This document shows, piece by piece, positions 6,804-45,318 of a stretch of 64,000 nt of DNA (position 1 is its first letter; each line of letters starts with the position of its first letter). The stretch spans positions 123,938,001 to 124,002,000 of the forward strand of contig OZ024741.1 of NCBI GenBank assembly GCA_964016885.1, written 5' to 3'. Below the pieces are notes generated by a model. The model worked only from the letters and a program-made list of their open reading frames with translations, ran no database searches and had not been told where the DNA came from. The DNA is from Eledone cirrhosa (taxonomy: Eukaryota). Made by a program: the position numbers and the translations under genes.

Positions 6804-7218
6804 AGAAGAAGTAAAAATGCCCAAGGGTACTAAGTACCCCTAGAAATATATAGTTTGTCTATGATTTAAAGTTGTTCTATGGTATTAATTTGACATACCA
6901 GAACTATAATATTAAGATAAGCAGAACAAACAAAATTCAACCAATTTTTTAAAATAAATTAAAAATATAATTTAAATATTTACCTATTCTTTTCTCCCTT
7001 ACCGATCGGTTTCGCTTTGTAAAACACCAGAAATCCAATGGATTTCTAATGGAAAATCAAAGTTCATCAGAGAAGCATTTTCCTTTCCTAGGGCTTAAGA
7101 CCCAGGAACGATAAAATATATTGTTATCCGCCAGCTAGAATAGGTAAATATTTAAATTATATTTTTAATTTATTTTAAAAAATTGGTTGAATTTTGCTTG
7201 TTCTGCTTATCTTAATAT
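6804..7218 (-). mobile_element. TA-flanked fold-back PLE-type insert
   Basis: Inverted arms 6909-6990 and 7137-7218, tail 6804-6908, HHR in the spacer. Confidence 0.82.
6996..7074 (-). ncRNA. Type I hammerhead ribozyme (slightly decayed)
   Basis: Minus strand: ttct CTGATGA actttg...caaagc GAAA ccgatcgg TA aggg; palindromic stem III; first stem II pair is an A-C mismatch. Confidence 0.75.
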
Positions 7219-14733: not shown

Positions 14734-15992
14734 AGAGGGTGGATTGAAAGGTTCATAGGCTGTATGAAGGTGATGTTAGAGCTATGAAATCTTGCAGGCA
14801 TTAATTTCAGCTCTTCTTATTAATAGCTGCATTTTTTTCCTTCCAGGTAAACTTACATTTGACTGTTCAAAGAAGATTCAAAGTAACTAGTAGCGACTTA
14901 TCTTGTAAATGGACATTATTTGACATCGTGGTGTTATCAAGTACCTGCAGCTAATGGATTTAGCCCCCAAAAGATTTCACGCTAACACGATTGCTACATT
15001 AGGGGGTGAGGCTCTAGCTTTATCAACAGTGCAAAAATGGGAAGCAGAATTTAGGAGGGGAAGGGAGGGTTTTGAAGATGATCCAAGGTCTGGACTTCCA
15101 GCAACTGCCTCCACCGAAGAAAACATGGATCATGTTCAGCACATGGTGATGGATCACCTGTGATTGAATATAAATTAAATACCCAATCCTATTAGCATAT
15201 CCTGTGAGAGAGTTGAGAATATTATGTACAATAAACTTAGCATGACTAATGTCTCTGCTCGGTGGGTGCCACGACTTCTGACCCCGATTCAAAATCACAT
15301 CTGGTTGATTACACCGTTGGAAAATATGACATTGTTTGAGGCAGATTCAGCTGGTTTCGTAGAACATTTCCTAACTCAGAATGAGTGTGGGTTCATCACA
15401 TTGAGCTAGGATGATTAACACTCCATGCAGTGGAAACACCCACCTCACCTGCTCCAAAGCAGACCAAGTTCATTTTATCTGCAGGGAAGTGATGGCCTCA
15501 GTTTTGGGGGATGCAAAAGTCATTGTGTTTATTGACTATCATCAAAAGGGCCACACCGCCAATGAAGAGTACTATGCTGACGCATTTACGTATGGCTATC
15601 AAGACCAAACGCCGAGGAAATCTGACGAAAGTGGGTCTTGTTTCATCAGGACAATGTTCCAGCACAGCAGTTCTTGGATTTAACGGCAGTGGTGCGTGAT
15701 TGTGGCTTTCAACTGGTTGATCACCCTCCCTATTCTCATGATTTGTCACCATCTGACTAGTATATCTTCCCTACATGAAAAAACACTTGGCTGGGAATCA
15801 GTATTGCAGTGGTGGTGAAATCATATCTACTGTTGATGAATTTGTTTTACCAAAAAGATGAAAACATCTTCACCAATGTGATCGAAGCACTGCAACACCG
15901 ATGGAAGAAGTATATTGACCGCAAGAGGGGTAATATTATTTAGTCACATTCCATAGGCTTGGTTAACCTATGAACTTTTCATCCGGGTCTGG
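14734..15992 (+). mobile_element. Decayed mariner (Tc1/mariner) transposon
   Basis: Degenerate TIRs (agagggtggattgaaaggttcataggct / aacctatgaacttttcatccgggtctgg) with TA at both ends; transposase motifs inside. Confidence 0.92.
14909..15935 (+). pseudogene. Mariner transposase pseudogene
   Basis: KWEAEFRRGREGFEDDPRSG, SARWVPRLLT and HPPYSHDLSPSD motifs; several stops and frameshifts. Confidence 0.92.
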
Positions 15993-17903: not shown

Positions 17904-17906
<3 letters not shown>

Positions 17907-18027
17907 CAAAGAAAATGTGGTAAGAAGAAACCATGTGGACCATAACGCACGAGAGTACTCGATACGTAGGGTGGTAGAGTGGGTAATAGGAAAAGAGTCA
18001 GAACCCCGACGGGGTCCTGACTCTTTT

Positions 18028-18032
<5 letters not shown>
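17904..18032 (-). mobile_element. Short TA-flanked PLE-type 3' end with terminal 23-bp hairpin
   Basis: Homologous to 34964-35168 and 49995-50071; arms 17986-18008 and 18010-18032. Confidence 0.8.
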
Positions 18033-18063
<31 letters not shown>

Positions 18064-18967
18064 AGTGTTTCGGATGGTTCCGCTAAGCGTAAAAGCAGAG
18101 ATTTTTTACTTGACCTTTTAATCTGTTATATGTATATATATATATATATCCTAAACGGACGGTAGTTGTGGTCGTGTTTTCGTTGGCAATCGTCTGTTTA
18201 CGACAGTACAGCGCGGCTCTACTTTATTTAACTGAGATAAAACTTATATGAGCATGAACAGTAGATCATTACGCATCTTTTGGCTTAAAAATCTAGAAAT
18301 TTGGTCCAGCGGGAAAAAGTTTATAATCAAAGTTTGCTGATAAATCTTGTGTTCAAGTGAATGAGTAGTAAGCGTGACGCTAGGGGAGGTAATGCAGAAA
18401 TGACGAATTTTTTTCGGCGGAACTCTTGTGATTGTGATTACGTTAGTCAAATGTAGTCAAATCGCCGAATCCCCTCCTCCTAATTGACTACGTCATTTCT
18501 GAACGGCCCTACTTGCGTCAGTGTGAAACATTACTTCACTTTTCACTGCTAAAATGCTTTTTAAATACTTCGTTAAAAATGTATGTTTATTATCAAAGCT
18601 ATTTTTTGTACCAATCTATCAATAGTTTGCGAAACTATAGGTAAACATGTGAGTTAAATTTTTAATCGCATCGATCGCTTTGTCGCACCGACTGTGACAC
18701 TGTCTGACTGTCTGTCTGACTGACACCTTTGTCGGACCGACACCTTTGTTCAAGCGGACAACTTTGTGTCACTGACACCTTTGTTCGTGCCGGCATCTCT
18801 GCGAAACACCGATGACAACAACCAGACCAAAATGTCACTTCATTCTTCATTGTTCTTCAAGACCGATCGCCGACCGATCGTATCGGTTGCTCTTCATATA
18901 CCAGGTATTCAACAGATAGTTTGCACTTCTAGTATTATTAACAGTCGTGCGATTTTTTGTACCAATA

Positions 18968-19080
18968 GGTGCGAAAAGTGCGCTATAAATATAGCGCACT
19001 ATTCGCACCGATAGGTGCGAATAGTGCGATAGGTGCGAATAGTGCGATAGGGGCGAATAGTGCGATAGGTGCGAATAGTG
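18968..19080. repeat. 20-bp-arm palindrome followed by four tandem 18-mers of the arm
   Basis: ggtgcgaaaagtgcgctata-aa-tatagcgcactattcgcacc, then (gataggtgcgaatagtgc) x4. Confidence 0.9.
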
Positions 19081-19251
19081 TACAATATTTTCTGAGATTT
19101 GCATCCACTAATTTCGCTTAATTAAAAATGATGTTTCGCGGCTTTTTGATCGGCTTATTCATTTTTTCCATGGCACGGAAATGGAGTATTTCCATTTCGA
19201 ATCAAAACTTTTCACTAAAATCGGGCAATTGGACTGATCAAATTCACATTC

Positions 19252-19835
19252 ATGCCAGTTTTTACAAATCCATAATTAGAAATGTGGCGAAATCGAATGA
19301 CCAGAAGGTATAAAAATATTAATTCAAATGTATTTACTTATCATACCAACAAAAATACTTAGATATTTTGTATACCTGGGGCTCGTCAGGGCCAGGTAAT
19401 GTTCGTCTCACCGTTGGCACTACAAAGCTGTGCAAAGTAATACAATAATTTTTGCCCAAGTATTTTTTATTAATCATTTATTTGTAAAGTGCCCATTCGA
19501 GGTCCAAAACCGGAAAACAGGGGAAGAGTCTCTTTGCAAGGCTACAGAAAATAGCGGAAAAGCACCACTGTACACCCATTTTCTACAGTGGTGTCATTCC
19601 ACGTCCACAAAGTGTAATTGAAAATAAAAATGACTTGGGCAAGAGAAATTCTCGTTTGGAAAAGTTTAATTACTGCATGAAAGAAATGATTCAAAAATTG
19701 AACTTGCCCAATCTTCACAACATTGAAAATTGGTCAAAATTTGACAAATCTGACTTCAAACCAGATATGATTCATTTGAACAATGTTGGAAATCTTAAAT
19801 TGACACAAATTTTTGCCAATGTTTTTGCCACCTGA
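19252..19835 (+). pseudogene. SGNH/GDSL hydrolase relic with short introns
   Basis: Blocks in order: [x]SIIRNV (I); GT-AG intron 19308-19362 joins DQK to IFCIPGAR (II) in frame; LTVGT (III-like); open frame 19488-19835 IFYSGVIPRP...FKPDMIHLNNVGNLKL (V, DxxH); AATAAA near 19873; frameshifts in the 5' half. Confidence 0.75.
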
Positions 19836-20015
19836 TCCTTGTTCTATGGCTGACTGACTAATTTTGTGACTTAATAAAATGTCATCATACTAGTAATGCA
19901 CAATGGTCATTTTTAAATTTAAATTTTAATAAATAGTTGTTGCTTGCATTGCCTTAAAATAGTAACAAGAATGTACACATACATTTTAAAAATACATCAT
20001 TATCAGTCAAATCAG

Positions 20016-20375
20016 TCAAATGTCACTAAAAGCCAGGTGGTCGATAACAACGTCTATAAGATTAGTTACATGCTCACACATTGGATCACCTCTCATCAAT
20101 GGCATTGGGTATCTGAGATAATCGTGGAGATAACTGATGAAGTCACAAATGAAGCGATGGTCTTCCAGTGTGAACAACTCCCTATATCCATTGATATATG
20201 TGATGGCTTCCGATTCATAGGTGCATTTTATGAGGAATTCCATGCATCCGATTTTCAGTGATTCAATGGGCATTTTATCAGAGATGATAAGGTATTTGAC
20301 CACGTTTTGCTTTGTAAGTAAATTGGAGAGAATCACTGCAGTCAAAATCATTTCTTTGCATGGGTTTTTGTCCAT
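20016..20375 (-). CDS. 119-aa ORF with a BACK-domain-like helical segment (probably mobile-element cargo)
   Basis: Intact non-repetitive ORF; NLLTKQNVVKYLIISDKMPIESLKIGCMEFL resembles the SPOP/BACK pattern L..eN...iL..Ad......Lk..c..Fi; acceptor-like ttttag just before the ATG. Confidence 0.45.
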   Translation of the reverse strand: MDKNPCKEMILTAVILSNLLTKQNVVKYLIISDKMPIESLKIGCMEFLIKCTYESEAITYINGYRELFTLEDHRFICDFISYLHDYLRYPMPLMRGDPMCEHVTNLIDVVIDHLAFSDI

Positions 20376-20648
20376 TCTAAAAAGTTAAAATGATAAAGTA
20401 TTACTACTATATAACTTACATCTATTGTTGTAACACCATTGAAATGCACAAGTTTCACCAATTCACTATTATGCACTAATCATCTCAAATGCATTCATGA
20501 TTTACTAGCTTTGTCATTAAGCCAGTTGCCTCAACTAGATTGCAATTATACTCAAAAGAACTTTAAAATGTCAATCACTTGTCAGTAATTCACTATGATC
20601 ATTTAATTATTAGATAGTTGTTGCTTGCATTGCCTTAAAAAATAGTAG

Positions 20649-21672
20649 ACCAGATAGAAAAATGCGTACAGCAAAAAAAAGTAATATTGCTGGAATATAA
20701 ACTTTTAAAAATACAGGACAAGAAACTAAAATAAAACTTTAAAAGAATAGGACAAGAAACTAAGATAAAACTTTAAAAGAATAGGACAAGAAACTAAGAT
20801 AAAACGTTAAAGAATTGGACAAGAAATAAAATATTTTACAATAATATTAGTGGCAACATTTTTTTATTCGTTTCCTGTGCTATGCCCCAGTATCTTCTTG
20901 ATTAGTGCATAATAATTGTCATGCTCTCATTGTGCGTTGCCCCTGAGCAGTTGGTTCTGGTTGGGGTTGGTTGGCTGAGCAGTTCTGCTCCGTCAGAATG
21001 ACCATTGCAAGAAGAATTGGCCGATGCAGCTGCAGGTCTCCTCCAAGAATGCACTTCTGGTCCCGCAACACCAGACGAAGATGGAGAAGACGACCGGGAC
21101 AAGATGTCGACTCTGACCACCGACTACGGCACCTCCCTCAACAACCGGTCCTCCCTCCCTCTGTCCCGTCATCCATCCAGTCCTCCTGCTCCCCCTTCCT
21201 GTACCAGAAAGCTGTGGCACGCATTCATCTGGACTGACGGACTTGAACTCAAGGACAAGATGCAAGGAGAAGATGGACGGGTTGGTCAAGATCAAGGATG
21301 AGCGGGACAAGAGCGTCCGCTGCTGCTCAAGATCTGTGCTCATGGGCCCATGGGTCCATTCACATTATGCATGACACATGAGGCGTGTCGCCGAATGATG
21401 AAATAGGGGTATGGTTATGGCCCAATTGGTGTTCAAACCAGGATCAAATGATCCCCCCGGTCTGACGACGACCTCTGAATGTGGAACCCAGAGCCTATGA
21501 ATGTGGAACTCGATTTTTTACCAATAAAAATGTTGCCACTAATATTATTGTAAACATTTTTATTTCTTGTCGAATTCTTTAAAGTTTTATCTTAGTTTCT
21601 TGTCCTGTATTTTTAAAGGTTTATATTCCAACAATATTACTTTTTTTTGCTGTACGCATTTTTCTATCTGGT
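20649..21672. repeat. Inverted arms (20649-20868 and 21523-21672) around a GC-rich coding-like core
   Basis: Arms are reverse complements; a 34-bp unit occurs three times plus partial in the left arm and once plus partial in the right. Confidence 0.88.
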
Positions 21673-21770
21673 ATATATATATATATAGTGAAAACTGCAA
21701 CGGGAACAAAAACAGAGAGGCAGTACAAACAAAGGTTTATTAGTTTCACACACTTGAGAGTGGAAGGGGG

Positions 21771-21798
21771 GACGTTTCGGGCATAAACCCTTCTTCAG
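21771..21798 (-). ncRNA. Minimal PLE-type hammerhead core
   Basis: CTGAAGA aggg tttatg ccc GAAA cg TC; stem I pairing not evident; same 3' half recurs near 37165-37179. Confidence 0.55.
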
Positions 21799-22232
21799 GA
21801 GAAAAGTGGGTGAGAAGAGAGTTCCGAAGGTGAGTGGGGAGTGGTGCAGAGACATTTAGAAAAAAGGGCGGTGAAAAGGGAGGAAAAACGGTGGAAGGGG
21901 TACAAATAAAAATAAAAATAAACATAAAGATAAACAAGGGGTGGAAGGGTGTGGGGCGTCTAGAGGTGGTGGTTGGTGGAGTTGGGAGAGGGAGGCAGGG
22001 AGTCCGAGCGGGGAGGGATGAAGGTGGTATTTGTGTGTGTGTGTAGGTGTAGGTGTGCGTGTGTGTATGTGAATGTGAGAGTTGGGGAAAGAACGAGGTT
22101 CCATGTTCAAGAAAAGGTGTGTTTGTGTGGTGGGGTGTAGATCGGTGTGTGCATGCGTATGGATGGGGGGGGGGGTATTCCGGAGGCTGAGTATATATTC
22201 TGGGTTCAATCGGGGGTAACCACAGTAATAAG

Positions 22233-22283
22233 AGCTTCCTGAGGATTTCTCACGAATGAAACAATTCTAGTCCTGCAGAAGCT
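22233..22283 (+). ncRNA. Hammerhead ribozyme copy (decayed), same family as 33546
   Basis: agcttc CTGAGGA tttctcacgaat GAAA caa..ctg CA gaagct; U16.1 changed to C; inverted partial copy at about 22325-22366. Confidence 0.65.
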
Positions 22284-22462
22284 TTTCTAATTAAAAAAAT
22301 ATATATATATATTTAATGTGGAAAGGCTTCTACAGGACTAGAACTGTTTCATTCCGGAGAAATCCTATATGCAGAAGCCTTTCTACATTAAATATTTATA
22401 CTCTGCTTTGTATTGAGTACCTTACTTACTGTGGTTTCCCCTGATTGATCTCGGGATAAACT

Positions 22463-33717: not shown

Positions 33718-34918
33718 TAGCTCTGATTTATCTAAATCAGCGAGCACTCTGCCGCTCATATCGAATTGTGTTTGTCGTGAACTCGTGCGCCGATCTTTCG
33801 GCACTCGATCATTCTAATATATTTAGCTCTGGACATAGCTATCCACCAGTTAATTTTATTGTTCATTTTTTGTCGATTCTATTGAGTGATGAATAGCTCC
33901 TGTTTATTTTAACATGTCTATTGAGCACTTTTATTCGATATGTGTATTTCCACATTTTCTCGAATAGTTTTCGCGGATGTAGAGGTTATCTCCCTTGCCG
34001 AATTCCATGTGCGTATTTAGCCTGGGTTAAGCCATTTTATCCGTTCGGACGAAGCTCGTTGAAGAAGTAAATTTCCTGTCCGCTGAATTCTAGAAGTCTT
34101 ATATATTTATATGTGAGCTGATAGAGAACAGTTTAAGGATTTACAGAAACCCATGAAGCTAGATTTAACATCTTCCTAGCGGGTCCGGGTATGCATTTTT
34201 ACATTCATTTAATTTTTCATCCTCAGTGTATACTGATATGTATACGGACATAGATATGTATATAGATATACATATATATATATACATATATATATACGTA
34301 TATATATATATATATACATTCATATATATTTATATATATATACATACATACATATTATATATATATATATATACAAACACAGACATATATATACACACAC
34401 ATATATTGTTATACTTTGGGAGGGTCATGTTGCTAATAAAAACACACGCATCTCTTGGTTTTCATTTCAATTCATTATAAGTTTGCGTTTGGCTGGCTGG
34501 TTGGATAACCAGAAGATTGTTTATATATTGCCAAAGCTCTTCCATCACAGATTATGTGACCTCCTCAGTGATTAGGTTTTTATTTTGTCTGTCTCTCCTT
34601 TGTTCTGTCCTACACCATCTTGTTTTTGTGTGTTGTGTGCTTAGTTTGCGTGTGCGTTACATCCTGGTGTATGTGTGTTTTTTTTATTTATTTGTTTATG
34701 TGTTTATTTACGTTTTCTATCTGTGTGTCTCTGATTGTTTTGTTAGTTTGGTTTATGTGTATAACAATATCTGTATCAACACACGTTTTCAGATGAGAAA
34801 TTTCGCAAAACGAATTTAAAAACGAATTATATACATATATATATATATATATTGATATATATATATAAATGTATATATATACATATATAAATATATACAT
34901 ACATACATAAATATATAC

Positions 34919-34961
<43 letters not shown>

Positions 34962-34963
34962 TA

Positions 34964-35168
34964 TAACAAAGGAAATGTGGTAAGGAACCAGATAGACCAT
35001 AACGCACTAAAGTACTCAATACTTAGGGTAGTAGAGTGGGTAATAGGAACGATAGGAACGAGTAGGACCCCGACGGCTGAGCTCAAGCCGTTTCGACGGC
35101 TAATTCTAGTCTAGAATTAGCCGTCGAAACGGCTTTAGCTCAGCCGTCGGGGTCCTACTCGTTCCTAT
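34964..35168 (-). mobile_element. TA-flanked insert ending in a 58-bp hairpin containing the 3' half of an HHR
   Basis: Arms 35052-35109 and 35111-35168 with a 1-nt loop; GAAA cggct..agccg TC gggg in both arms. Confidence 0.85.
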
Positions 35169-40815: not shown

Positions 40816-41689
40816 TATGCACAGAGGTATCCACAGTAAGTTGAAAATGTTGTAGGTTAAGATAAATCTCGGAAAACAATAAATCATTAAAAGAAAAACA
40901 GTCTTGATATAAGTTAAAACAATGAAATAAAAAATCAAGTCATTAGAGATATACTTCACTGCTTTACGATCGTTTCTAAATGATGATAATACACTGTAGC
41001 TACTCCGTTATTGAACTGTGTAAGGTTAGTTACAAAATATCAGATAAAGAGAATATTTACTTACATGCATATCACCAGCTGTTTTCAAAAGCAATAATAA
41101 TTTTATTCAATAATAATTTTATTCAGAATTAGTAGTATCATGTCCTTATTTGGAGGTAGTTGAAGAACTAACGAATCAAATTGTTTTTTTCATATGGTGT
41201 TAAGATGAAAAGTAATACACTTTAGTTGAGGTCATGACCCTTTGAAAGGAATGGCTGAATGGCGTTAATAGTAGAATTGGCATACAAATCTATTAGGAGA
41301 AAGGGATTGTCAAACTGATAGTTGAATGTATCTGGTATAGTGAAGTTAAAAAGAATGTCAAAATAAATGGTGAGTAGTGTTGTATTGAGTTTTTAGGTGA
41401 ATATAAATTAAGGTTATAGCTAGGAAAGATAGTATATTAAAAGATGAAAATTATAATAAGATAATGAAATACAGTAATGCGATAATATACAACTTAACCA
41501 ACACAATATAGTACGGTGTGGTAAATTGCACTTAGTATAATATAGCATATGATACGCTCTAAAATAATTGTTTCTACTTGTGGCACAAGGCCAGCAATTA
41601 TCCTGTGTATTACTGGTACTTTAAGTATGTTTATGCATAAATAATCAAACTCAGATAAATACATGTTGGCATTGAAACAAATACCTAAA

Positions 41690-42997
41690 GTGGTTATTAC
41701 TATTACACCAAACAACCGAAAAACCACAACAACTATTACTACACGATCTATGACCAAGCACTCAAAATCTCATAATCTACCCAAAAATAACACCAAATAC
41801 AGCCACGGTAATTTACCAAATTCCACAAATAAGGATACTAACCATAGGAATTCTTCTAGAACACAACACAATAATATAAGTGATAATAAGAACTTAACTA
41901 CAAACCGCAAAAGAAACATGACATGGTACAACGCACGCTTCAACCTGCAAACTATTGGACAAATTCCCAAAAAGTTCTTTGAAATTCTACATAAACATTT
42001 TCCACCAAACCACAGATACCACCAAATATTTAACAAATATATTGTTAAATTCTCATACTCTACATCAAGCAATCTCCAGCAAAAAATAAGCAACTACAAC
42101 ATTTATAAACTTAAAAATAATATGACTACACCACCACAACATAATTTAAATAGGACTGCACATTTTAAAAAGGCAAATAATACAATCCTTCAACCTAGAA
42201 AACACAGCCACCCAAATCACCAATACAAAAACAACAGACCACAAAAGCACAATACAACCCTGGCACCAAACCACCCACAAAGCAACCTTCATTCTCCTGC
42301 TATCATTAATTACAATAGGGCGGTGGATTGGCAGTATCGATGGTCGGACGCCATGCTGTCCAGCATAGTTACGTCCCTTTACGATCAGAGTTCAAATCCC
42401 GCCGAGGTTGACTTTGCATTTCATCCTTACCGGGTCGATAAAATAAAGTATCAGTAATGCACTGGGTAATTGCTGGCCTTGTGCCTAAAGTAGAAACAAT
42501 TAATTACGATAGGAATAGCTCAAGGATTAATGAGAATAGTATAGGCACCCTCAACAACCATCTTACGTATGGCTGTAATTGCAGAAATAGAAGCATTTAC
42601 CCCTTAAATGGAAACTGTTTGATTAATAATGTAATATATAAATGCACTGTGTCTACTCGAGCCTCCAACAAAACATATATAGGATCTACATCAAACACAT
42701 TTAAGAAAAGATTTTACGTACACACTTGTAGTTTCAACAATACTAAACTAGCTAACACCACATCTTTAGCTGAAGCGGTAAATAATTATAAAAAGAAAAA
42801 AATAGATTTAGTTATCGTGGAACACCATTCTACAAAGAACTCCATATCTTGGGAACAGGAGCGAATGCAGATTATGTTCAGGGGAGATCTTGGAAATTAC
42901 TAAATCGAAGGACAATTTATTAAATAAAAGGCAAGAATTGATCATAGTTTGTAATCACCGTATACGAAGAACATTTAAATACTATAAACCTAATTAA
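41690..42997 (+). pseudogene. PLE ORF C-terminal half (thumb plus GIY-YIG endonuclease)
   Basis: RKRNMTWYN..KHFPPNH..IFNK..VKFSYS, CNCRN..PLNGNC..VIYKC..YIGSTSNTFKKRFYVH, CRLC, LLNKR; removing the 194-bp SINE plus TSD rejoins the frames; one later frameshift. Confidence 0.88.
42320..42498 (+). mobile_element. Meta-domain SINE inserted in the PLE ORF
   Basis: 15-bp TSD attaattac(a/g)atagg at 42305 and 42499. Confidence 0.92.
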
Positions 42998-43443
42998 ATA
43001 CTATACACCTAATTAAATATTCGAAATAGCAACTCACTATAATTCTATATAAAGTAACATTTATTAGTACCTCTTTCCTCTAATTATATGCATTCATGCT
43101 TATTTATATTTTTTACCTTTTAATGTTTTAGCTTCTTTAGGTTTATGCGTTAATGACTAAAGGCAACAAGGTACACAACCACCCGTAATTGTATGAGTAA
43201 ATATATATCTAATTATGATATGGAAATATATTTATGTGTGTGTATATATATATAAATATATATTTATGTATGTGTATATGTCTATGTATATATGTATAGG
43301 TATGTGTGTGTGTGTATGCGTATATATATATATATGTGTGTGTGTTTGTGTGTGTGTATATGTGAGTATAGGTGTATGAGTCTTTATATATGAGTGTGTG
43401 TACATGTATGAGGAGTGAACATATACACACATATATATATATA

Positions 43444-43494
<51 letters not shown>

Positions 43495-43495
43495 G

Positions 43496-43550
<55 letters not shown>

Positions 43551-44361
43551 GTATGTATATGTGTGATTATATATATATATATATGTATATATGTCGGTAT
43601 AGGTGTGTGTGTGTGGATATAGATATGTATGGATATGTATGTATATGATTATGTGCATACGTGTAAATGTGTATTTAGGTTTGCATCTATTTGTGCGTAT
43701 GTATATTTTGGTTGGATATCAATATAACCGTACCTCTCTCTATATATAGTGTGGGTATATGCACTTTGTAATGTATGAAATGTATGTGTTTTAATTATGC
43801 CAACAAGTATTTATCTGAGTTTGATTATTTATGCATAAACATACTTGATATTATTTTAGAGCGTATCGATAAAATAAAGTACCAGTAATGTAATGGTAAT
43901 TGCTGGCCTTGTGGCTAAAGTAGAAACAATTATTTTAGAGCGTATCATATGCTATATTATGCAATTTACCACACAGTACTATATTGTGTTGTTTAAGTTG
44001 TATATTATCGCATTACTATATTTCATTATCTTATTATAATTTTCATCTTTTAATATACTAACTTACCTAGCGATAACCTTAATTTATATTCACCTAAAAA
44101 CTCAATACAACACTAATCACCATTTATTTTGACATTCTTTTTAATTTCACTATACCAGATACATTCAACTATCAGTTTGACAATCCCTTTCTCCTAATAG
44201 ATTTGTATGCCAATTCTACTATTAACACCATTCAACCATTCCTTTCAAAGGGTCATGACCTCAACTAAAGTGTATTACTTTTCATCTTAACACCATATGA
44301 AAAAAACAATTTGATTCGTTAGTTCTTCAACTACCTCCAAATAACGACATGATACTACTAA

Positions 44362-45318
44362 TCTATATATATAAAACTGAGGTTGTCTGTCTGTCTATCG
44401 ATTTTTGGCACACATCTCCTCTTAGAATCTCTCACGGAATTGCACCGAAATTGCTATACTTGTACATTGAGCCCTAGCGAAGACATCGGAAAAAAATATT
44501 TCAAATTGACCCGCCCTATCTGACGAAATCGAATATAATGTATCGATTTTTGAGCGTAAGTGATCAGTTATTTCTCTTTGTTCTGTTTACATTGAGCGTC
44601 TGCGTGCAAAAATAAAAAAAATTACGCTGGCTTTCTCAGCGTTTAAAATGACTTTAACACAATACACGAACAGTTGTCGAGCCAGCAAAACTTTGACCTG
44701 CAAAATTCATCAGTTCGAACACTAAACTTCCGTTTTGCTTCATTTCCATTTAAAAGCCTTTTAAAACAATATTTTTACTTGAAAACAAGTCTATTTAAAG
44801 ACTACGTAAAACAAGCAAATATTTCGTAAAAAAAAAGCAAAATTATATAAGTTTATTTAAAATATATGTATCTGTAAATTTCGTTAGGCGTGCAGACAGA
44901 CAGTCGTGCAGAGAGGTGATATACGCGTGCAGACAGATAGTCGTGCAGAGAGGTGATATAGGCGTGCAGACAGATAGTCGTGCAGAGAGGTGATATAGGC
45001 GTGCAGACAGACATAACTGATAATTTGGTTACGCTAATGTTTTTCTCTGCGTTGCAGTGTTTACATTTTCGATCTTTGTTAATAAATAACCAGTGCAGTT
45101 TCTATCCCCAGCATCCTTTTTTGTTATAACATTCGGGTTATCGTTATGTTTTCTTAACTTCATAAGGCATATTGTTGGTTGAGGGAATATTAATCAAAAA
45201 CACCACATGCAAGTCTGCACAGTAGACACTACAGTTTTTAAGCCAAGAAAGAAACTTAACATTGTAACTTTAACGCAGCTACTGAGCGACCCCGAGCAAC
45301 GCCGGGCTTTACTGCTAG
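44362..45318 (+). mobile_element. Non-autonomous Helitron
   Basis: 5' TCTATATATATAAAA, 3' hairpin cccgagcaacgccggg (45291-45306) then CTAG, inserted between A and T with no TSD; empty site in the opposite arm near 41129. Confidence 0.92.
44886..45012 (+). repeat. 37-bp minisatellite inside the Helitron (about 3.4 copies)
   Basis: Unit aggcgtgcagacagatagtcgtgcagagaggtgatat. Confidence 0.92.

What the first reader, a model, noticed from the sequence alone, without database searches (positions are those of the whole stretch)
18150..21672. TA-flanked multi-gene cassette: spliced SGNH hydrolase relic, BACK-like ORF and a third coding-like block
Seen: compact convergent genes, a 55-nt intron that joins SGNH blocks I and II in frame, shared motifs between genes (tagttgttgcttgcattgccttaaaa at 19934 and 20616; attatgcactaatca at 20469 and inverted at 20899), (TA)n at both ends and a terminal inversion like the PLE inserts. 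Known: SGNH/GDSL esterases occur in giant PLEs (Terminons), Helentrons and LINE ORF1s, and PLEs can retain introns. Inference: cargo of an undescribed large mobile element or endogenous virus, possibly moved by the PLE machinery.
Basis: partly seen in the sequence, partly recalled or inferred. Interest (0 to 1): 0.75.

Follow-up and report, generated by a model that had tools for sequence, protein, structure and literature searches.

The report
Deleted Helitron copy with esterase cargo
This 3.5-kb insert is a damaged copy of a family of hundreds of internally deleted rolling-circle DNA transposons (Helitrons) in a large animal genome, likely copied by its 12.6-kb parent's enzyme, and its esterase relic is the back half of a predicted spliced NADAR-esterase cargo gene, not a virus or retroelement passenger.

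Summary
Real element, wrong vehicle. Window 18149-21671 is one copy of a dispersed family (872 candidate places, 40 scored). A 12.6-kb parent with the same ends encodes a Rep/PIF1 transposase with DUF6570 and a fused UCH protease domain, so it is an HLE2 Helitron without endonuclease. Ends: 5' TC plus stem-loop plus 13-bp subterminal repeat, 3' CTRR, A^T target, no consistent target duplication. This layout is described for fungal HLE2-reverse and oomycete proto-Helentron. TA flanks are a target preference, not part of the element. The last ~215 bp recur inverted 0.66 kb upstream. This fold-back is shared by two related families, its arms are homogenised, and its loop is rarely flipped. The parent carries a predicted five-exon NADAR-SGNH gene that sister elements lack. 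Window-type copies lost ~9 kb and fuse the transposase start to the esterase. This copy is further broken (5' hairpin lost, frameshift). BACK is unsupported, the third coding block unconfirmed, and no RT, hammerhead or viral gene was found. The scan reported this family before from other copies in the same genome; I reached the classification before that look-up.

The parts
18149..21671 (+). Whole non-autonomous HLE2 Helitron derivative, 5' TC ... CTGG 3', between A18148 and T21672, sitting in a (TA)n tract
   Evidence: maps to the 12.6-kb parent at 90-98%
18149..18181 (+). Damaged 5' end: left arm of the 10-bp terminal stem-loop (GGTA loop). A 17-nt deletion after 18164 removed the right arm and most of the 5' subterminal repeat; unique to this copy among 90
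   Evidence: (intact end folds at -10.2 kcal/mol)
18182..19127 (+). 5' non-coding region of the parent (an 80-bp parent segment is missing near 18381-18388), with GTCT-rich and 18-bp tandem repeats
19128..19271 (+). First ~48 codons of the RepHel transposase ORF; deletion junction near 19269-19272 where ~9.0 kb of the parent (Rep, helicase, UCH, NADAR exons) is missing
   Evidence: 82 of 90 copies share this junction
19272..19835 (+). SGNH/GDSL esterase relic, 3' half of the parent's predicted NADAR-SGNH gene. Intron 19308-19362; 76-nt deletion after 19402 (frameshift, removes the block III motif HVGSND); 11-nt deletion after 19485 (removes the acceptor of the 57-nt intron); block V DMIH kept
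19875..20648 (+). Family-specific block with ORF2 (19971-20261, 96 aa, no family assigned), bounded by two diverged copies of a ~90-bp subterminal segment that holds the 'shared motif' (19926, 20607); absent from both sister autonomous copies
20649..20863 (+). Inner arm of the fold-back: inverted copy of the element's own right end, with four 34-bp units and a copy of the subterminal repeat at 20680
20864..21525 (.). GC-rich loop of the fold-back; no Pfam match; inverted in 3 copies; no DNA similarity to sister-family loops
21526..21671 (+). Outer arm and right terminus: 3' subterminal repeat at 21629-21641, no strong 3' hairpin, ends CTGG; two 34-bp units deleted after 21591

Best explanation
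The window stretch is an internally deleted, damaged copy of a 12.6-kb HLE2-type Helitron and was likely spread in trans by that family's Rep/helicase through rolling-circle copying into A^T sites. Shown: the parent and its domains, shared ends, the ~9-kb founder deletion, multiplication of the deleted form, A^T targeting without consistent duplication, and copy-specific lesions. Inferred from Helitron biology: the HUH Rep nicks at the 5' TC next to the conserved stem-loop, the helicase peels off one strand, and the strand is released at the 3' CTRR, circularised and inserted elsewhere. Inferred, untested: the long fold-back at the right end pauses the helicase in place of the small 3' hairpin of canonical Helitrons, and pairing of its arms explains their homogenisation and the rare loop inversions. 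The NADAR-SGNH gene and ORF2 are likely accessory cargo gained by this family only. This copy is likely immobile now because its 5' hairpin and subterminal repeat are deleted.
For: Family of dispersed copies with fixed ends. Parent G000:C28:42.936-42.949 Mb has the same termini and Helitron_like_N E 6e-28, DUF6570 E 7e-16, PIF1 E 1e-25, UCH E 6e-07. Rep motif reads YFWRLEYQQRGAPHIH like DUF6570 homologues, unlike the genome's HLE1 motif FTYVIEFQKRGLPHAH. Left flank ends in AT in 70 of 73 copies with a left end; right flank starts with T in 76 of 77 with a right end. A sister element nested in a parent copy gives an empty site: inserted between A and T, no duplication, ends TC...CTAG. The 5' stem changes compensatorily in the sister family and wholly in a 67%-identical family, while the GGTA loop stays. 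All three families have the fold-back, each with its own terminus in both arms. The layout matches HLE2-reverse as described. Window copy vs 81 copies: median 98.4% identity over 800 bp.
Against: No intact autonomous copy of this family was seen: the two long copies translated have broken frames, and the other 16 of 18 helicase-bearing places were not all translated. No tree was built, so HLE2 placement rests on DUF6570, UCH and the Rep motif. The role of the fold-back is untested, and two copies with a collapsed fold-back still have a proper end. Seven of 67 copies show 5-12-nt flank repeats, six in low-complexity TA-rich DNA and one in a locally repeated flank. SGNH and NADAR calls are below Pfam cut-offs, and the SGNH exon found no relatives. 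Splicing is predicted only.
Confidence: 0.93

Rival explanations
1. Cargo retro-mobilised by Penelope-like element (PLE) machinery, the terminal inversion being an inverted pseudo-LTR.
For: An inverted copy of one end exists. A hammerhead-like core lies just outside the element at 21798 on the minus strand, and a GIY-YIG-like PLE relic with inverted ends lies at 41128-44362. PLEs can keep introns (recalled).
Against: Both ends are fixed across copies. No hammerhead in the element (Rfam; motif scan). No RT or GIY-YIG motif in the parent. The parent is a RepHel element, and the empty site shows no duplication.
Confidence: 0.02
2. Composite: an ordinary Helitron whose right end is a separate ~1-kb TIR element (MITE) that inserted there.
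For: The last 1.0-1.1 kb has long inverted arms and can be inverted as a block. A stray right-arm fragment occurs inside one long copy.
Against: The arm contains the 3' subterminal repeat that pairs with the Helitron's 5' end. The arms carry each family's own terminus (CTATCTGG, CTAGCTAG, CGGTCTAG) in three families whose loops share no DNA similarity. No target duplication flanks the block.
Confidence: 0.04
3. Fragment of an endogenous virus or Polinton-like element with compact genes.
For: Compact genes with short introns and a repeated motif between them.
Against: Extension of seven long copies gave RepHel, UCH, NADAR and SGNH, with no capsid, polymerase or integrase among the ORFs scanned. 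The repeated motif is a duplicated subterminal segment present once in the sister family.
Confidence: 0.01

Closest known systems
HLE2-reverse (FoHeli3/4/5, Fusarium oxysporum; PMC5148889 passages, PMC11417382 section 24 passages)
   Same: DUF6570-bearing RepHel, 5' stem-loop upstream of the left repeat, 13-16-bp asymmetric repeats, 3' repeat 20-40 bp from the end, no 3' hairpin, 9-13 kb size
   Different: Animal host; ends TC..CTRR with a clear A^T target (no preference was established for FoHeli3-5); fused UCH domain; long fold-back of the right end; intron-bearing cargo
Proto-Helentron-Pi / HelenPi572 (Phytophthora infestans; PMC4067079 section 11, PMC11417382 section 24 passages)
   Same: HLE2-type RepHel without endonuclease, CTAG-type 3' end, A^T target, no duplication, 5' stem-loop, cargo genes
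   Different: 5' TC rather than TT; subterminal repeat directly after the 5' hairpin rather than 3.6 kb inside; UCH fusion; NADAR-SGNH instead of SET/TIR cargo; reported only from Phytophthora
UCH-bearing HLE2 subgroups c and d (HELIANO, PMC11417382 passages)
   Same: DUF6570 plus UCH; nearest named protein hits are insect RepHels (Rhodnius, Linepithema; 31-35% identity), some also carrying UCH
   Different: Subgroup not tested by tree; end structure of those elements not examined; SGNH, GDSL and NADAR do not occur in that paper's main text (its domain table S11 was not read)
Texim SGNH genes carried by fish Helitrons (PMC4021074, abstract and section 7)
   Same: Intron-containing SGNH hydrolase gene travelling with a Helitron
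   Different: Here the esterase is downstream of RepHel and predicted to be fused to a NADAR domain; no sequence link to Texim was shown (empty)
NADAR domains in retrotransposons (Ectocarpus Gypsy, oyster Tx1 ORF1; PMC12477816 passages)
   Same: NADAR domain as transposon cargo
   Different: There in retroelements; here in a DNA rolling-circle element, spliced and fused to SGNH

Membership tests
Helitron-like elements (HLE) | Autonomous partner encodes HUH Rep plus PIF1 helicase between the same termini | tested here: met
Helitron-like elements (HLE) | No target-site duplication | tested here: met
   empty site; 60 of 67 copies without a non-TA flank repeat of 5 nt or more
HLE2 | DUF6570 domain in RepHel | tested here: met
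   E 6.6e-16, above cut-off; marker per PMC11417382
HLE2 | Short asymmetric subterminal inverted repeats (8-16 bp) | tested here: met
   13-bp repeat at 5' position ~24 and 30 nt from the 3' end in own and sister families; the 5' copy is deleted in the window copy
HLE2 | Phylogenetic placement in the HLE2 clade | not tested
   no tree built; Rep motif compared only
Canonical HLE2 / Helentron / DINE-1 | T^T target and 3' stem-loop after the right repeat | tested here: not met
   A^T target; the last 60 nt fold at only -2.7 kcal/mol
Helentron | AP endonuclease fused after the helicase | tested here: not met
   UCH follows the helicase; no Exo_endo_phos hit, no GDFN motif
HLE2-reverse / proto-Helentron layout | [quoted passage not shown] | tested here: met
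   definition
HLE1 (canonical Helitron) | 5' TC, 3' CTRR, A^T target | tested here: met
HLE1 (canonical Helitron) | GC-rich 3' hairpin 10-12 nt from the end and HLE1-type RepHel without DUF6570 | tested here: not met
Penelope-like elements / Terminons | Reverse transcriptase and hammerhead-bearing repeats | tested here: not met
SGNH/GDSL hydrolase | Blocks I (GDS), III (GxND), V (DxxH) in order | tested here: inconclusive
   motifs present in long copies (motif definitions recalled); Pfam 18 bits vs cut-off 27; window copy lacks G-D and block III
NADAR | Match to PF08719 across the domain | tested here: inconclusive
   exon A E 0.002 (profile 4-67), exon B E 0.07 (82-115), exon C no hit; collinear but below cut-off, exons scanned separately
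BACK domain | Profile or fold match to the all-helical BACK domain | tested here: inconclusive
   no Pfam hit; model pLDDT 65 is beta/alpha with no clear fold match, best Z 6.1

The most novel reading that the evidence does not exclude
An animal lineage of HLE2 Helitrons (at least three families down to 67% helicase identity) terminates rolling-circle copying with a 100-215-bp fold-back of its own right end instead of a small hairpin. It keeps a GGTA-loop hairpin at the start, exchanges the DNA held in the fold-back loop, and in one family carries a spliced NADAR-SGNH gene that could counter host ADP-ribosylation.
Probability: 0.35. Interest if true: 0.55.

Novelty: new variant of a known kind. 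Interest (0 to 1): 0.33.

Why it matters
The copy itself is a dead repeat. The family matters modestly. It shows in an animal an end layout described from fungi and oomycetes, which HLE2 finders that expect a 3' stem-loop and a T^T target would likely mis-bound. It also offers a natural series (three families, collapsed and flipped ends) for asking how HLE2 elements stop copying, and it adds NADAR-SGNH to the list of Helitron cargo.

Tried and rejected
Protein searches with the last SGNH exon found nothing (49 candidates, none at E<=0.001; 0 of 1.84 billion representatives). NADAR exon C had no PDB sequence hit. The SGNH-exon fold was too poor to use (pLDDT 47). ORF2 gave no Pfam family and no clear fold, and no Atlas answer was obtained. 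Rfam gave only TA-repeat miRNA noise and one sub-threshold snoRNA hit. No RNA holder was listed, so splicing is untested; no reads were laid. An obligatory flip-flop (rolling-hairpin) model was rejected: the loop was flipped in 0 of 55 loop-bearing copies among 60 taken in list order, 2 of 27 among 30 hand-picked copies, and one further long copy. The 5' hairpin loop was inverted in one long copy only. A DIRS-type internal complementary region was rejected because the inner arm is not preceded by a complement of the left end. The top Helitron_like_N hits of the genome are HLE1 and share no DNA with this element. Literature searches that found no animal HLE2-reverse, fold-back end, NADAR-Helitron or 2A-Helitron report: (open-access library only; Repbase/Dfam not searchable; supplements not read).

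Full report
Observation. The sequence features are largely as described, but the stretch is not unique. A DNA search of the own genome (3.0 Gb) gave 872 candidate places, of which 40 were scored: the window itself, 26 near-full copies and 13 copies with a further 1.25-kb deletion. A search with the last SGNH exon gave 303 candidates, and all 150 scored ones matched. Full copies are about 3.65 kb. Over 800 bp the window copy is a median 98.4% identical to 81 other copies, so the burst is recent.

Ends and target. Among 90 copies examined (60 taken in list order, 30 chosen earlier), the left end was found in 73 and was preceded by AT in 70; the right end was found in 77 and followed by T in 76. 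A sister element nested in a parent copy gives an empty site: it sits between A and T with no duplication and reads TC...CTAG. Intact copies begin with T-C and a 10-bp stem with a GGTA loop, followed at once by a 13-bp repeat whose complement lies 30 nt from the 3' end; the last 60 nt have no strong hairpin. (TA)4 flanks on both sides occur in 9 of 65 copies with both ends and on neither side in 35, so they reflect target choice. Seven of 67 copies show 5-12-nt flank repeats in repetitive flanks; I read these as target context, not duplications.

The parent. Two copies with aberrant left sides carried a PIF1 helicase upstream of the esterase. Extension gave a 12.6-kb element with the same two termini. 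Its ORFs hit Helitron_like_N, DUF6570, PIF1 and UCH, with no endonuclease hit. DUF6570 marks HLE2 and UCH is enriched in HLE2 subgroups c and d (PMC11417382, passages). The Rep motif agrees with DUF6570 homologues and differs from this genome's HLE1 elements. The nearest named proteins are insect RepHels at 31-35% identity. A helicase probe found 18 of 40 scored places at 96% or more, 2 at 88% and 20 at 66-73%. The two own-family long copies that I translated are broken; one sister copy has a 1904-aa frame, one stop, then 507 aa. The window element maps onto the parent's two ends and lacks about 9.0 kb between the first ~48 RepHel codons and SGNH block I. 82 of 90 copies share that junction.

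Cargo. Long copies keep IVGDSIIRN and, upstream in frame, three exons that follow the NADAR profile in order (E 0.002, 0.07, none). The predicted gene has five exons with GT-AG introns of 54-55, 213-217, 55 and 57 nt; exons A-C are open in 3 of the 4 copies that hold exon A. Both domain calls are below Pfam cut-offs, and the motif reading is from recall. Window-type copies have a chimeric frame (RepHel start, then S-I-I-R-N) that lost the G-D of GDS. The window copy adds a 76-nt frameshifting deletion and an 11-nt deletion of the second acceptor; the 76-nt deletion is unique among 90 copies. Two sister autonomous copies (11.2 kb, 86-88% identical over RepHel) lack NADAR, SGNH and ORF2 (no tblastn hit at E 0.01), so the cargo is not needed for spread. 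It is better read as a duplicated subterminal segment than as a gene promoter. ORF2 has no family or fold assignment. SGNH cargo in Helitrons has a precedent in fish (PMC4021074, abstract and section 7), and NADAR has one in retrotransposons (PMC12477816, passages).

The fold-back. The last ~215 bp recur inverted 0.66 kb upstream. The sister family has 190-bp arms at 98% identity, and a family at 67% helicase identity has arms of at least 93-105 aligned bp. Each family's inner arm carries its own terminus, and arms within 67 copies average 98.4% over the terminal 60 nt. This implies ongoing homogenisation or regeneration of the inner arm. The loops share no DNA similarity between families. The loop is inverted in 3 copies but in none of 55 unbiased ones, which fits occasional recombination or template switching between arms and not obligatory flip-flop replication. 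The distant family also starts TC plus a different stem with the same GGTA loop and ends CTAG before T.

Mechanism. Shown: parentage, ends, target, deletion, amplification. From established Helitron biology: nicking at the 5' end, strand displacement, release at CTRR, a circular intermediate (reported for FoHeli1 in PMC5148889, passages) and insertion without duplication. Inferred: the fold-back acts as the stop signal. I took this last idea from earlier scan notes; my tests are its conservation in three families, and against it, two copies with collapsed arms and proper ends. Bao and Jurka proposed that pairing of the asymmetric repeats sets the endpoint in Helitron2 (PMC3627910, passages), which is an alternative or additional signal.

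Comparison and verdict. It works like a Helitron and is an HLE2 by protein markers. It fails the Helentron test (no endonuclease), the canonical HLE2 end test (target and 3' hairpin) and the HLE1 protein test. Its layout is that of HLE2-reverse and proto-Helentron, described from Fusarium and Phytophthora. I found no report of it in animals in the searches, which cover open-access text only; HELIANO's supplementary domain table and figures were not read and may bear on this. The scan has already reported this family several times from other copies; those notes are not independent support. Verdict: new variant of a known kind, interest 0.33.

Noticed in passing
parent RepHel N-terminus, L042:~6830-6860 (+); also sister copies L115 ~2731 and L117 ~2832: A 2A-like ribosome-skipping motif variant (LSLLIIGCVELNPGP; the canonical form, recalled, has D in place of C) is conserved near the RepHel N-terminus in both families; none of the 19 homologous proteins has ExNPGP. 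No paper held both '2A-like' and 'helitron'. It is deleted from window-type copies.
   Followed up: partly
L050:4439-4858 (-), loop of the sister family's fold-back: 140-aa ORF with a Cys/His-rich, PHD-finger-like start and a retrotransposon-ORF1-like tail (likeness recalled); no Pfam hit.
   Followed up: partly
L039 (G000:C18 ~12.548 Mb): One copy has the 4-nt loop of the 5' hairpin inverted (TACC for GGTA); none of the 73 left ends scored does.
   Followed up: partly
L050-L052 (G000:C28 ~136.46-136.48 Mb) and L127-L128: Elements with two 5' ends: a nested sister copy has two left termini separated by a long TA tract, and a long own-family copy contains a second left end, like the self-insertions described for FoHelis.
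   Followed up: no
window 21690-22290: Right neighbour with a hammerhead-like core on the minus strand at 21798, probably a separate PLE fragment.
   Followed up: no
window 41128-44362: PLE-like relic with ~400-590-bp inverted ends and a GIY-YIG-like frame.
   Followed up: no
window 17906-18029: Small TA-flanked element ending in a strong terminal hairpin; related pieces near 34914-35168.
   Followed up: no
window ~14920-15950: Degenerate mariner-type transposase fragments (likeness recalled from the translations).
   Followed up: no
window 20467-20482 and 20899-20914: 16-nt perfect inverted match between the ORF2 block and the loop; rarer than chance (3 of 200 shuffles) and unexplained, perhaps a scar of template switching.
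   Followed up: partly
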